Positions 2,223 through 60,609 of a DNA stretch of 64,000 nt are shown here, piece after piece (the stretch's first letter is position 1; every line of letters begins with the position of its first letter). This stretch comes from Daphnia carinata (Eukaryota): positions 4,340,001 through 4,404,000 of the forward strand of contig NC_081333.1 in the NCBI RefSeq assembly GCF_022539665.2, written 5' to 3'. A program made the position numbers and the translations under genes. A model generated the notes under the pieces. The model did no database searches. It saw nothing but the letters and a program-made list of their open reading frames with translations, and was not told where the DNA came from.

Positions 2223-3221
2223 ATGGAGTCGTCGAGAGAAATCGGCGATACGGGTATTACTTACTCGAAAAACGCTGTGCTAGGTACAGGCTTTTTTGGG
2301 GATGTTTATTGTGGTTGTTTCAACGGCGAAAATGTTGCTGTAAAAAAAATATTAAAGCGTTCGGAAAAAGATGTCCGCGAATGCAATCTGCAAATTAAAC
2401 TTGATCACGAGAACGTTTTGGCCATTCGTAAAGTGGCAGAAGATGAAGATTTTCGGTATTTCCATTCCTAATTTTCTATTTATTATACTTTAATAACTAG
2501 TCATTTGCATTCAGGTATATCGTGCTGGAACTTTGTGCGGGAACCCTTGGAGAAGTCATTGAGAAAACGTACAAAGGCCCAGACTTGCCGCCTGACCAAG
2601 TTGTTCTGTACGAAATCGCAGATGGCCTTGATTACATCCACGGAAAGAAACTTGTCCATCGCGATGTTAAACCTGATAACATTTTAATTTCCATGTCTGG
2701 TCAAATGAAATTATCGGATTTCGGATTAAGCAAAAAAATCAGCACACGGAACACGTGCTCGATGAGTGGACTTAAAGGAACCCTTTTATGGATGGCACCA
2801 GAGCTGAGGAGTAATAACGAACCCAATAAAGCAACGCCTAAATGTGACATCTTCCCGTGTGGTTGCGTCTTTTTTGTTTTCCTTACGCGTAAAAATGGTG
2901 GTATTCATCCGTTTGGCGACAAGAATGGCGATCACATCGAAGTACAACAGAATATCCGTGATGGTACACCAGTTAACCTGGATGGTAGGATCAGTTTGAC
3001 TATCTAAAAGTTAGGCTATGCGGGTATCTATAAAATTCTACCAATAATTATTCACAGTATTAAGAGGTGATCATTTTGCTGCTGATGTCATTCGAAAAAT
3101 GATAAAAAAAGATCCGTCGGTTAGAATCGCTTTGGAAGAGGTTAAACGCTCGTTTCAAGAACTCGAGAGAAAAACGTATCCATTCCTCCGTTTCTGCTGG
3201 AATCAAGTTACCAACTGGTAA
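2223..3221 (+). CDS. Small cytosolic IRE1-like Ser/Thr kinase, no luminal/TM or KEN domain (3 exons: ~2223-2455, 2515-2984, 3058-3221)
   Basis: LGTGFFGDVY, VAVKK, HENV, LELC, HRDVKPDN, KLSDFGLSK, GTLLWMAPE, DIFPCG, IHPFG motifs; GT-AG introns join in frame; same intron positions as the kinase at 58753. Confidence 0.85.
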
Positions 3222-3339
3222 AGATCAAGTTTGGCGTAAGTTTTTCATTTTACGTTTTTTTCATGAGACATTGGTTGATTTCTGCTTTTCATACAACAGG
3301 AACCTGTAATTCCGGCAATGAAGGTTTTATTTAACATAG

Positions 3340-3585
3340 TAACCCGACTACTCCAGAAACCCCAGCAACCTAAGTAAATCCAAGAAATCCAACAACGCGA
3401 ATGACTTAAGCAATTCCCGCTACCCCAGCAATTCCAGCAACCGCAGCGACTTCAGCAATCCCAGCAACCCAAGCAACCCCAACGACTCCATCAACCCCAA
3501 CGACCCCAGCAACCATAGCAATTCCAGCAACCATAGCAATTCCAGCAACCTCAGCAACACGTGCCACCCCGGCAACCTCAGCGTT
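3340..3585 (+). repeat. Degenerate 9-bp tandem repeat (CCAGCAACC/CCAGCAATT-like) encoding Pro/Ala-Ala-Thr-type tripeptides in one frame
   Basis: Visible 9-nt periodicity; the frame from 3410 reads AIPATPAIPATAATSAIPATQATPTTPSTPTTPATIAIPATIAIPATSAT. Confidence 0.8.
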
Positions 3586-5033
3586 CACAGTAAATCCCGA
3601 TAGCTGCGATCGTATAGTAGCAGTTCTGATAATAAAGACCAGCGGCACAATCGCGTCAAAGCTCTCGACCACCACAGAAGAAAAGGTTAATTGCATTGCG
3701 TATTTTGACCCATTTACGAATATGGTTATTTCCACCGGTGCTGAAGTCCCTCTGCCAGTCGTGGTTATTCCACCCAATGCGACGTCCCCTGCAATTAGGG
3801 ACACGGGTGCTATATCGCGGCGCGGTTGGCGAAATAACCGTGGGCAAAATTGTACCAGTCATAGGCAGGACTTCGGCTCTAGTAAGTTTCAAGATGAATT
3901 GAATCAGATCTTACAATCCATCTTAGAAAAAGGGTTTTCTCCTTGCAGTTTAAACATCAAATTAACCTGCCTGGATTAATAATTACACTTTTTGTTTTCA
4001 ACCACAATGGGCTCTTTCCATAATTCTCAGCTAATTTGAAATTTCAAGAAGCTTTTTTGCAGAGCTAATCATTAAAGGGCCAGTCTGATCTCACAATTGT
4101 CTTCAATACTAAGGGAGTCTTAACTGTCAGTATTGTCATGATCAACATACTTTACCAAAAGAAAACACCAGTAATGATCAGACTTACCAAAAATCAGGGT
4201 AGGTAGCAAGTGGAATCGGTTGAGACGGAAATCGCCTACAACTGAAGTTGCCAAAGAGTTTTTGGCAAATCATTTGGTGGCCAGCGATTGCACGTTACAA
4301 GTTTGAGATGATTTGTTTGTTACTCCCGGCCATATAGTGGAAATACTCGATGAAACTGTGCCTGTTAAAAAAAAAATCGTCAACCAAACAGACAAGAAAA
4401 ATTATTCTCGCACAATGAAGAAAGTACAAGCTTGCGTTATTTTTACAACTAAACATTATGTACTATACACATTATTATACCCCACCATAGTAACAACAAT
4501 AACTAAACGGTTTAATCACAGAAAAGTTTCGTATTCACGAAACCAACTTAAAAACAGAACACCAACACACGCCGTTACAACAAGCCAACCACAAAAGGCC
4601 AATAGGTTATTGGCTGTGGAATTTGATAAATAGTTATAAAATGTCCACAAGTTTGGCCAAAAAGAATATTCAGTTCCCTATTATTGATCAAAACAATCAG
4701 ATTTCCCTATTCTAGTCAAGCAGATCTCATAAATATCTCATAAATTTCATATTGGATTGCAGGTAAACAAGTTATGACTTACATTACACATTTGACATGT
4801 TTTCTATCGCCGAAGACGACCTACACTAAAGACGATCACAGTAAGCACCTCTACTTTTTGTATGGCTAAGAAAAACGCAGAAGTACGATACTTGACAACT
4901 GTTCTGAGAGAACATTACCTTTCGAGTAAACTCGAAACTTGAACTTGTGCAAGAATAGCCGCCCATCAACAAGCCTCTTAGGCTCTGACCATTTCGAATG
5001 GCAGTGGTTGTGGCCTCAGAATTTAAAAATAAA

Positions 5034-5045
5034 CGCTAGATGGCG
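5034..5045 (+). promoter_or_regulatory. CTCF-like motif CGCTAGATGGCG upstream of syntaxin-18
   Basis: Matches the CCRCYAGRKGGCR core by eye. Confidence 0.4.
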
Positions 5046-58278: not shown

Positions 58279-58596
58279 TTGGGTGTTTTTAATTCAAAAG
58301 TTAATCTGTAAGCCAGGACAAGTTATAATACAAACAAATTTACATTTTGTGTTATCTCAAATTCATTTAAATATTTTATTACGTTTGATTTATCTTGTTA
58401 CATTTGTACATGTTGTAGTACAGTCTTTAAAATTAACCCTTTCCCTCTTAGAAAAAAGTTTCCTTCAGCTCCTTACGTAAGAAAATTGCGTAAACCCTTT
58501 CTCTCCAAAATACGCGTTCATTTGAATCTTTACGTGTGTATTATTCAAACCGTTTTCTTTCCCTTCACAATTGTTCCCAATTCGTAACGGCTTCAA

Positions 58597-58614
58597 AAGA
58601 TAACGCGTTATCTT
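58597..58614. promoter_or_regulatory. Perfect 18-bp palindrome AAGATAACGCGTTATCTT (inverted double GATA site)
   Basis: Read directly; ~140 bp upstream of the kinase-RhoGAP ATG. Confidence 0.55.
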
Positions 58615-58752
58615 GTTGCTTACAACTTTGTTATCTATGACTGACAGATTTACGTGCTAGATTATTTTAATGTAGATTTTATACTAGTTTGTCTTACACG
58701 ATTTTCTAGCCGTCACTTAGCGTTTCATTAGTGAACAACCAAATCGTTCGCA

Positions 58753-60609
58753 ATGGCTTTCTTAACCTCTTTACATCCAAAAACGTTAAACAAAAAAACC
58801 GGCACTTACTACGTGAAAAAGGACGTTCTCGGTGTCGGTAGTTTTAGCATCGTTTTTCGTGGTTCTCATCGCGGCCTGGATGTGGCTGTCAAACGAATCG
58901 AGTTGCATCGGCTGGATCCGGACGACCGTGAAGCCAAGTTGCAAATGAAACTCGAACACGAAAATGTTTTGAAAATCTTCGCTGTAGAAAAAGATGACGA
59001 TTACAGGTACATTTCAAAACATTTTCAAATGATGTTACGTGCTACATTTTATGGTTTATCAGGTACATTATATTAGAGTTGTGCGTTGGAACCCTTGACC
59101 AAGTGTATGAGAAGGGCAAAGTGTACGAAGGACCTGCCCTGCCACCTGATCAAACAGTCATTTACCAAATTGCTATGGGATTGGATTACATCCATTCGAG
59201 AAATCTGGTCCATCGCGACGTCAAACCGGACAATATTCTCATTTCCAAAACGGGTGAAATGAAACTATCTGATTTCGGTTTGTGCAAACAAATTTGCCCG
59301 AGGGAAACGTTCTCGATGAGCGGATTTAAAGGAACTGCGTCGTGGATAGCGCCGGAGCTTTTAAAGGCAGTCGATAATGAAGGACAAATTCAAATTAAAG
59401 GTACAACAAATAGCGACATTTTCTCAGCGGGTTGCGTGTTTTTCGTGTTCGTCACGCGCGGGACCCATCCATTCGGTGACGACCATATCGCAGTGCAAAT
59501 TAACATCCGCAATAATCAACAAGTCAACATTGACAGTGAGTGCATAGAACATAATTTCTTTTAAATTATTTTTGAATAACATAAACGAATTTTTTAAAGA
59601 ATTAGATTCAGATCATTTTACGAGCTCTGTCATACGTAAAATGATTGAACCTGAACCATCACGCAGAATGCCTCTCACGCAAGTGAAAGAATTGTTCAAA
59701 GCGATCCCGCGGAGGCTTCGCGGGCTTGGCTCTTTAGGTCAGAAGCAATTTTAAAAAATGCGAAATAAAAATTGTCTTTTAATTATTTAAGTTCTGATTA
59801 TAGGCTCGTTCAATGAAGTTGAAAATCGTAACACTACGAGCAACAAAGAAGGTATTCCACATACTCCGCCCGCGAGACGGCGCACGAAATCGATTCAAAG
59901 TGAAAGACGCAAACAATTGCACCATAAATTTCACGGAATCCATTTAAGCAGTTCACCTACCACCGATGCTGGGCAATTTTTCCCGATGGCCAAAGGAGCC
60001 ACGTTGGGAGTCCCGCTGGAAAATTGCCCGCGGTCCACCAAACACGAAAACATTCCAAAGATAGTCGAAGTGTGTATCAGCATCATCGAAGAGCACGGAA
60101 TGGACAGTGTTGGTGTGTATCGCGTTCCAGGTAACGTGTTGGTCGTCAACGATATCTCCGATTCCCTCAACAAAGGAGATTTCGATCAGTTACATCCGCG
60201 CGGGAATGAAGTCAACATCATCTCGTCCGTCATCAAATCATTCTTCCGCAAATTACCCGATCCATTAGTGACGTCAGAGTTTTACAGTTCTTTAATCGAA
60301 GCTAGCAAAATGGAACCGGAAGAATTCCGATTGACGGCCATCAAACAACTGGTGGAAGAATTACCCGATCCTCATTACTCGACGTTGCGTTACCTCATCG
60401 TTCACCTGTCTCGCGTGGCTCGTATGAGTAGTGTCAATAAAATGGATGCTCGGAATTTGGCTACAGTTTTTGGACCGACGTTAGTCAGGCCAGGTGATGA
60501 CAGTATGGCAACCATGATGGCCGACATGCCTTACCAATGTCGCATTGTTGAAATGCTGATCGACAAAGTGGACTTCTTTTTCCCACCGTCATCCAATGAC
60601 GCTGTTTAG
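58753..60609 (+). CDS. IRE1-like kinase fused to an ARHGAP21/23-like RhoGAP domain (exons ~58753-59006, 59063-59535, 59600-59737, 59804-60609)
   Basis: Kinase: LGVGSF, VAVKR, HRDVKPDN, DFG, GTASWIAPE, THPFG. Exon phases join in frame to a RhoGAP with GVYRVPG (arginine finger), KSFFRKLPDPL, NKMDARNLATVFGPTL. Confidence 0.8.

What the first reader, a model, noticed from the sequence alone, without database searches (positions are those of the whole stretch)
2223..60609. One IRE1-derived kinase chassis with swapped C-terminal modules across the window
Seen: six genes (ten kinase-like domains) share IRE1-type motifs and an intron just before Y(I/L)x(L/M)ELC, but end differently: no domain or a repeat tail (2223), ankyrins (four copies), RhoGAP (58753). 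The added modules sit in single large terminal exons. Inference: a modular kinase-fusion system, analogous to plant kinase fusion proteins with integrated domains, generated by exon capture.
Basis: inference. Interest (0 to 1): 0.75.

Follow-up and report, generated by a model that had tools for sequence, protein, structure and literature searches.

The report
Water flea kinases with swapped tails
Two of the six kinase genes here belong to a water-flea family, related to the stress sensor IRE1 but lacking its RNA-cutting part, whose members carry many different tail domains that likely act as interchangeable sensing or targeting modules, while the other four genes are copies of one fixed kinase-ankyrin gene.

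Summary
The six genes and ten kinase-like domains are real, and all ten share one intron position. They are two kinase types, not one chassis. Type A (K1 at 2223, K6 at 58753) is IRE1-related, without luminal part or RNase. Type B (K2-K5) is four tandem copies of one pseudokinase-kinase-ankyrin gene, no closer to A than to IRE1; joint monophyly was neither recovered nor rejected (AU p=0.19).

Tail swapping holds for type A. Among 68 named Daphnia protein clusters, type A carries WD40 (32), a second ankyrin type (5), an eIF4E-binding-motif piece (2), alpha-kinase, a Q-rich repeat, galactosyltransferase or a type B kinase. Type B carries only ankyrins or nothing.

K6's RhoGAP comes from ARHGAP21, is still constrained, and joins by a normal in-frame intron, but no transcript or database protein confirms the fusion. 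Exon capture is not supported as the general route. K3 is frame-broken and K1's tail has decayed.

Tails as sensing or bait modules for defence or stress is my best guess (about 0.45); nothing functional was tested. Nine literature searches found no description.

The parts
2223..3221 (+). K1: type A IRE1-related kinase, 3 exons (2223-2455, 2515-2984, 3058-3221), 288 aa, catalytic motifs intact, no intact tail
   Evidence: tree
3290..3605 (+). Repeat behind K1; in the kinase frame a Q-rich repeat broken by stops, similar to the tail of D. sinensis P0315 (low complexity, E 5e-6); likely a decayed tail
25464..30452 (+). K2: pseudokinase + type B kinase (HKDLTLEN, DFV) + linker + ankyrin array, 10 exons, 1449 aa; ankyrin exon 28578-30452
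   Evidence: identical to P0410
32304..37487 (+). K3: same layout, broken in this sequence (frame break at the end of exon 3, duplicated frame-shifting exon 7); ankyrin exon 35601-37487 open
   Evidence: P0243
41559..46547 (+). K4: pseudokinase + type B kinase + ankyrins, 1426 aa by my model; the RefSeq model P0242 stops in intron 8, before the ankyrin exon 44661-46547
49278..54311 (+). K5: pseudokinase + type B kinase + ankyrins, 1460 aa; ankyrin exon 52422-54311
   Evidence: identical to P0407
58753..59737 (+). K6 kinase exons (58753-59006, 59063-59535, 59600-59737): type A kinase, catalytic motifs intact
59738..59803 (+). Predicted 66-nt GT-AG intron, phase 1, GC 0.21, joining kinase and RhoGAP in frame; holds a read-through stop and an AATAAA (59764), so a kinase-only form is possible
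59804..60609 (+). K6 terminal exon: RhoGAP derived from ARHGAP21, 63-65% identical to the best cladoceran-type ARHGAP21 hits, GVYRVPG kept; AATAAA at 60628
24289..56409 (+). Four tandem copies of a block of about 8-9 kb: 3' piece of the upstream gene, a pseudokinase-kinase-ankyrin gene, and 5' pieces of the PHM7-domain gene
   Evidence: self-BLAST
29135..29404 (+). 270 identical bases shared by the K2 and K5 ankyrin exons (K5 copy from 52979); likely gene conversion

Best explanation
The window samples a Daphnia expansion of IRE1-related kinases without luminal domain or RNase, in which one type (A: K1, K6) has been joined to many unrelated tail domains that likely serve as interchangeable sensing or targeting modules, while a second type (B: K2-K5) is one old pseudokinase-kinase-ankyrin fusion copied in tandem. 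Shown: the gene structures, the two types, the missing RNase motif, the range of tails, and selection keeping the reading frames. Inferred: new members arise when DNA-level duplication places a piece of another gene behind the last kinase exon. Inferred working: the tail binds a ligand protein (a repeat scaffold such as WD40 or ankyrin, or a copy of a host hub domain such as a RhoGAP, an eIF4E-binding motif or a kinase); binding brings kinases together or frees them from the pseudokinase, as known for IRE1 and JAK; the output is phosphorylation, not RNA cleavage. The most likely use is surveillance against infection or cell stress, as in plant kinase fusion proteins. That last step rests on analogy alone.
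For: All named members found are Daphnia, six species. Type A is one clade (14 of 14 rows, 100/99) whose profile scores IRE1 (median 194) above type B (141) and outgroups (108); IRE1 is the best PDB match of a K1 relative by 13 orders of magnitude. No KEN catalytic motif in 68 named proteins plus 5 window models, against 93 of 104 IRE1 hits. Tails of type A: WD40 32, ankyrin 5, eIF4E-motif piece 2, alpha-kinase 1, Q-rich 1, galactosyltransferase 1, none 3, plus 1 with a type B kinase. The type A ankyrins align only weakly (about 45-49 bits) to the K5 ankyrin exon, so likely a second capture. The eIF4E-motif piece matches the eIF4G1 peptide 5t46_B (E 0.009) and occurs as one ORF on short Logan contigs (P0403), which suggests spliced transcripts. 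The RhoGAP is constrained: 10 of 66 conserved columns changed against 45 of 86 variable ones (Fisher p 2e-4, conserved against the rest), on a long branch (0.51) among cladoceran-type ARHGAP21. K2-K5 dN/dS is below 1 in all 18 pairwise comparisons. Tandem clustering, a 270-bp identical tract and broken copies fit birth-and-death families. Plant tandem kinases: pseudokinase as decoy and regulator (PMC8761531, passages); integrated domains as baits (PMC13600239, passages).
Against: No function, ligand or expression was tested. In K2-K5 the kinase diverges faster than the tail (dN/dS 0.40-0.62 against 0.25-0.39; 59-65% against 67-84% identity), the reverse of the plant bait pattern in PMC13600239. 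Positive selection is weak: kinase p=0.02, ankyrin p=0.014 from the last codons only, pseudokinase p=0.36; three tests on four sequences with gene conversion. 55 of 68 proteins carry just two generic repeat types; the striking tails are 1-2 clusters each, and the galactosyltransferase one looks like a merged gene model. No kinase-RhoGAP protein among the best 120 of 339 hits or the best 120 of 1634 hits. K1's tail and K3 are broken. A Daphnia resistance QTL paper has no kinase mention outside its references (PMC9894429, term search). A D. magna study finds the KEGG IRE1 gene set up under food restriction, which points to stress rather than infection if that set is this family (bioRxiv 10.1101/2020.05.24.113381, passages).
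Confidence: 0.45

Rival explanations
1. Mostly neutral chimeras: a duplication-prone kinase family picks up neighbouring gene pieces by segmental duplication; only the WD40 and ankyrin forms are functional, and rare tails are short-lived or annotation merges.
For: The duplicated block drags along pieces of flanking genes. K3 is broken and K1's tail decayed. Rare tails are 1-2 clusters each of 68. The K6 fusion is absent from the listed hits. The RhoGAP changes more conserved columns (10 of 66) than true orthologues (1-5 of 61-63).
Against: The RhoGAP exon stays open for 268 codons at about 33% divergence and is constrained. The eIF4E-motif fusion is kept in D. magna and D. sinensis and in Logan contigs. 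The alpha-kinase fusion has RefSeq isoforms.
Confidence: 0.25
2. Ordinary signalling: the tails target the kinase to host substrates or sites (eIF4E, Rho GTPases, scaffolds) in stress, diet or developmental responses, with no parasite sensing.
For: The RhoGAP keeps its GVYRVPG motif (its arginine as the catalytic finger is recalled). Tails are under purifying rather than diversifying selection. The KEGG IRE1 set rises under caloric restriction in D. magna.
Against: Tail turnover between close relatives and between species is hard to fit with a stable housekeeping pathway (inference).
Confidence: 0.22
3. One reading: one IRE1-derived chassis, with all modules gained by capture of whole terminal exons.
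For: The shared intron position in 10 of 10 domains. A+B monophyly not rejected (p=0.19). D. pulex P0406 joins a type A to a type B kinase.
Against: A+B not recovered. B is equidistant from A and IRE1. Only one kinase intron is shared between the types. The RhoGAP piece lies inside the parent's exon. WD40 tails appear split by introns.
Confidence: 0.08

Closest known systems
IRE1/ERN1 kinase-endoribonuclease
   Same: Type A kinase domain: 36-41% identical, best PDB match, YIxLELC, HRD.KP.N and G.HPFG motifs.
   Different: No luminal domain or membrane span before the kinase (ATG 10-17 codons upstream in K1 and K6), no KEN RNase, many copies with unrelated tails.
Plant tandem kinase and kinase fusion proteins (RPG1, WTK1-4, Sr43, Lr9, Rmo2/Rwt7)
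   Same: Pseudokinase-kinase pairs made by duplication or by fusion of different kinases, extra fused domains, tandem clusters (PMC8761531 and PMC13600239, passages). Both routes are seen here: the pseudokinase is nearest type B, and P0406 fuses A with B.
   Different: Animal, and a different kinase ancestry from plant receptor-like kinases. No resistance or effector binding shown. In K2-K5 the tail is more conserved than the kinase.
RNase L and other ankyrin/LRR-kinase-KEN proteins
   Same: IRE1-related kinase combined with ankyrin repeats (PMC3710099, table passage; P0309, P0473, P0302).
   Different: There the repeats precede the kinase and the KEN RNase is the output; here the ankyrins mostly follow the kinase and KEN is absent.
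JAK pseudokinase-kinase module; RIPK4/ANKK1 kinase-ankyrin proteins (the latter recalled)
   Same: Pseudokinase before an active kinase: JAK and TYK2 head the Foldseek list for the K4 model. Kinase followed by ankyrins.
   Different: A layout match only (18% identity, rmsd 16-19 A); no FERM or SH2 domain.
ARHGAP21/23
   Same: Donor of the K6 RhoGAP.
   Different: PDZ, PH and the long C-terminal part are absent, and the domain evolves faster.

Membership tests
IRE1 | IRE1-type kinase domain | tested here: met
   Type A only (K1, K6). The tree does not resolve A with IRE1, but joining them costs 0.2 log-likelihood units (p=0.48).
IRE1 | IRE1-type kinase domain in K2-K5 (type B) | tested here: inconclusive
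   IRE1 ties with MST2 by sequence and with RET by fold (Z 28.0, rmsd 2.4, 262 aligned, against Z 28.0, rmsd 2.2, 255 aligned). AU p=0.19-0.21.
IRE1 | C-terminal KEN ribonuclease with catalytic motif | tested here: not met
   No PF06479 in any Daphnia member scanned; motif in 0 of 73 against 93 of 104 controls.
IRE1 | Luminal sensor domain and membrane span before the kinase | tested here: not met
   Gene models start 10-25 codons before the first kinase-like domain. The hydropathy check itself was uninformative, as it missed the span in the IRE1 controls.
Plant tandem kinase / kinase fusion proteins | Two kinase-like domains, one a pseudokinase, and/or an extra fused domain | tested here: met
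Plant tandem kinase / kinase fusion proteins | Kinase domains from plant receptor-like or soluble kinase families | tested here: not met
   All named members are Daphnia; the one plant receptor kinase row falls in the outgroup.
Plant tandem kinase / kinase fusion proteins | Fused domain more variable than the kinase (bait pattern) | tested here: inconclusive
   Not met for the K2-K5 ankyrins. The K6 RhoGAP is accelerated against its parent, but there is no second copy to compare.
Plant tandem kinase / kinase fusion proteins | Binds a pathogen effector and confers resistance | not testable with these tools
   needs binding and infection assays
RNase L | N-terminal ankyrins + pseudokinase + KEN | tested here: not met
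   Order differs and KEN is absent.
Exon capture at native exon borders | Module starts and ends at the donor gene's splice sites | tested here: inconclusive

The most novel reading that the evidence does not exclude
Daphnia has independently evolved an animal version of the plant integrated-decoy kinase receptors: an RNase-less IRE1 kinase that captures copies of host proteins attacked by parasites (eIF4G's eIF4E-binding motif, a RhoGAP, other kinases) and uses them, beside WD40 and ankyrin arrays, as baits that switch the kinase on.
Probability: 0.25. Interest if true: 0.85.

Novelty: new variant of a known kind. Interest (0 to 1): 0.6.

Why it matters
Daphnia is a main model of host-parasite coevolution, and kinase fusion receptors with swapped domains are so far a plant story in the papers I saw. 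A large, genus-wide, fast-turning family of IRE1-related kinases with different tails gives a concrete list of candidate intracellular sensors that RNAi and binding assays can test. It also bears on annotation: databases name these genes IRE1, aurora, CaMK, MAPK or RSK, so an IRE1 gene-set signal in Daphnia transcriptomes may report this family rather than the unfolded protein response (inference).

Tried and rejected
No genome is held for this window, so the genome-wide count was replaced by protein database searches, which are lossy: one search missed P0315, a close K1 relative, and searched only 598-2000 aa and scored only 7989 candidates. No RNA holder was listed; that is no evidence either way. 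Of the 150 representatives, most were unrelated multi-kinase proteins and were set aside by per-domain score. Exact look-up of five terminal-exon ORFs as stand-alone proteins found 0 of 5; only one start codon each was tried. Idea that the helical domain behind each K2-K5 kinase is a dead KEN remnant: not supported. HHalign gave E 0.015 with the shared HPxF anchor and 0.18-0.29 without; global scores were within block shuffles (34 of 60 and 13 of 60 reached them); anchored scores equalled tails of unrelated kinases (15 of 29 and 7 of 29 reached the medians) while KEN controls scored 67-191; a 72-residue model (pLDDT 67) had no Foldseek match; the Atlas gave no usable hit; the wide VIA search was not run. 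Retroposition of the RhoGAP was set aside, because the parent exon is itself intron-free. The 473-aa K1 form with an A/T/P repeat needs an 8-nt exon and was rejected. No Daphnia IRE1 proper was among my sequences, so the trees lack it. The careful tree used 48 rows picked from 83 non-pseudo domains, under LG+G4 without the mixture model. Earlier scan findings: none. Literature searches without a description of the family; most subscription papers are outside that library.
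Full report
Gene structures. Six-frame motif scans and Pfam place ten kinase-like domains in six plus-strand genes. I built exon chains in scripts. K2 and K5 came out identical to the RefSeq D. carinata proteins P0410 and P0407, which supports the method and names the likely species. K4's RefSeq model P0242 shares about 730 residues with mine but stops in intron 8. K3 has a frame break at the end of exon 3 and a duplicated exon 7, both at short runs of one base, so decay and assembly error cannot be told apart. K1 ends at 3221; the repeat behind it resembles the Q-rich tail of D. sinensis P0315 but holds stops. All ten domains have the intron before the ELC motif; the other kinase introns differ between K1/K6 and K2-K5.

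Two kinase types. K1 and K6 are 61% identical, 39% to IRE1, with VAVK, HRD, DFG and APE intact. The second kinases of K2-K5 have AACK, HKD and DFG (DFV in K2); K5's is 27-31% identical to type A and 27-29% to IRE1. The first domains lack DFG and APE, score best with the type B profile, and share a similar helical extension with type B (HHalign E 8e-4), so they likely arose by internal duplication. In IQ-TREE (48 rows, 262 columns) A and B are each one clade at 100/99 on an open backbone. Forcing A+B together is not rejected (p=0.19); forcing A with core IRE1 costs almost nothing (p=0.48). The shared intron hints at common descent, but I could not check whether IRE1 or other kinases have it too.

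The family in Daphnia. The top 16 of 339 hits to K6 exon 2 are 14 named Daphnia proteins and 2 unnamed fragments, followed by true IRE1. With this gave 68 named clusters from six species; they include alleles and isoforms from different assemblies and four window genes, so they are not gene counts. Type A: WD40 32, ankyrin 5, eIF4E-motif piece 2, alpha-kinase 1, Q-rich 1, galactosyltransferase 1, no extra domain 3. Type A plus B: 1. Type B: ankyrin 17, none 4. Unclassified ankyrin protein: 1 (Pfam labels; the Q-rich label by eye; the eIF4E label, E 0.009). None has the KEN motif. Among the eight nearest relatives of K1 and K6, K1 and K6 included, the sequences part right behind the last kinase helix into seven different endings. 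This is the strongest result: tail swapping is real, and it belongs to type A. Type B is a fixed layout shared by D. carinata, magna, sinensis and galeata, and K2-K5 are four copies of one block.

The RhoGAP fusion. The tail is a piece of ARHGAP21. It keeps conserved columns (10 of 66 changed against 45 of 86 variable) but evolves faster than true orthologues. The joining intron is ordinary for the window: 66 nt and GC 0.21, within 50-116 nt and 0.18-0.41 for 32 introns. The exon is open for 60 codons before its first ATG, and the last part of that stretch resembles the parent upstream of the domain, which favours splicing over a separate gene. Against: no kinase-RhoGAP protein appears in the listed hits, and an AATAAA in the intron allows a kinase-only form. 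I put the spliced fusion at about 0.7.

How tails were gained. A read-through gene call (P0121) shows the parent's RhoGAP exon running from just behind the PH domain to beyond the RhoGAP end. K6's similarity starts some 45 or more residues inside it and stops before its end. Read-through calls also suggest introns within WD40 tails (P0013, P0016) and none between kinase and alpha-kinase (P0400). These are protein-level inferences that assume genomic contigs. Large single exons are common here anyway (syntaxin-18, two PHM7-domain genes). Segmental duplication of gene pieces, visible in the window itself, is the better-supported route.

Selection. Among K2-K5, dN/dS is 0.33-0.61 (pseudokinase), 0.40-0.62 (kinase) and 0.25-0.39 (ankyrin exon), with a 270-bp identical tract between K2 and K5. 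My own site-model test gives only weak signs of positive selection. The ankyrin tail does not look like a diversifying bait; if anything diversifies, it is the kinase.

Mechanism and odds. Shown: architecture, loss of the RNase, tail turnover, retained frames. Inferred: the tail binds, the kinase is clustered or released, phosphorylation follows. Activation of IRE1 by clustering is recalled knowledge; pseudokinase restraint in JAK is cited in PMC8761531 (passages).

Literature. Nine searches (listings and abstract starts) found no description of this family. Passages read by term search: PMC3710099 (KEN proteins; its Daphnia expansion is another HEPN family), PMC12102780 (no mention of kinase, ankyrin, IRE1 or WD40), PMC3584848 (kinase, ankyrin and WD families are large in D. 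pulex), PMC13600239, bioRxiv 10.1101/2020.05.24.113381, PMC9894429, PMC8761531. No supplements were read, and gene lists in them may mention these genes.

Verdict. A real, apparently undescribed Daphnia kinase-fusion family. New variant of a known kind; interest 0.6.

Noticed in passing
P0406 (D. pulex), compared with window K2-K5 exon 4 onward: A type A kinase stands where the pseudokinase of the type B gene would be, followed by the end of the B linker and a B kinase: a chimera of the two types.
   Followed up: partly
P0009, P0010, P0403: K1's close relatives carry a YxxxxL eIF4E-binding-like motif matching eIF4G1 (E 0.009); a later stretch resembles eIF4G's PABP-binding motif (recalled, not found).
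   Followed up: partly
window 26098-26673 and 27594-28018, and the matching parts of K3-K5: Each kinase-like domain of type B is followed by a helical domain of about 80-100 residues with no Pfam match (one search scanned part of it); modelled at pLDDT 65-90 behind the pseudokinase. A KEN origin was tested and not supported.
   Followed up: yes
window 55978-58278 and 60869-63160: Two intronless PHM7-domain (TMEM63/OSCA-like, name recalled) genes flank K6; decayed 5' pieces of the first recur at about 39164-39899.
   Followed up: partly
window 5201-6160 (+), 6302-7000 (-), 8490-9375 (-), about 10465-13450 (-): Ordinary neighbours: intronless syntaxin-18, heme oxygenase, a ubiquitin-conjugating enzyme and an AMP-binding enzyme.
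   Followed up: no
window 22156-24915: Gene without Pfam match with recurring 'RP.I.KL.DNL' and 'DY' motifs; its last exon is copied in decayed form in front of K3, K4 and K5.
   Followed up: no
window K2-K5 second kinases: HKD in place of HRD; non-RD kinases are often linked to innate immunity (recalled, not tested).
   Followed up: no
P0462 (Orchesella cincta), P0309 (Exaiptasia), P0302, P0473: Other invertebrate or unnamed IRE1-like kinases with altered layouts (no KEN; ankyrin or LRR with one or two kinases and KEN); none groups with the Daphnia types.
   Followed up: partly
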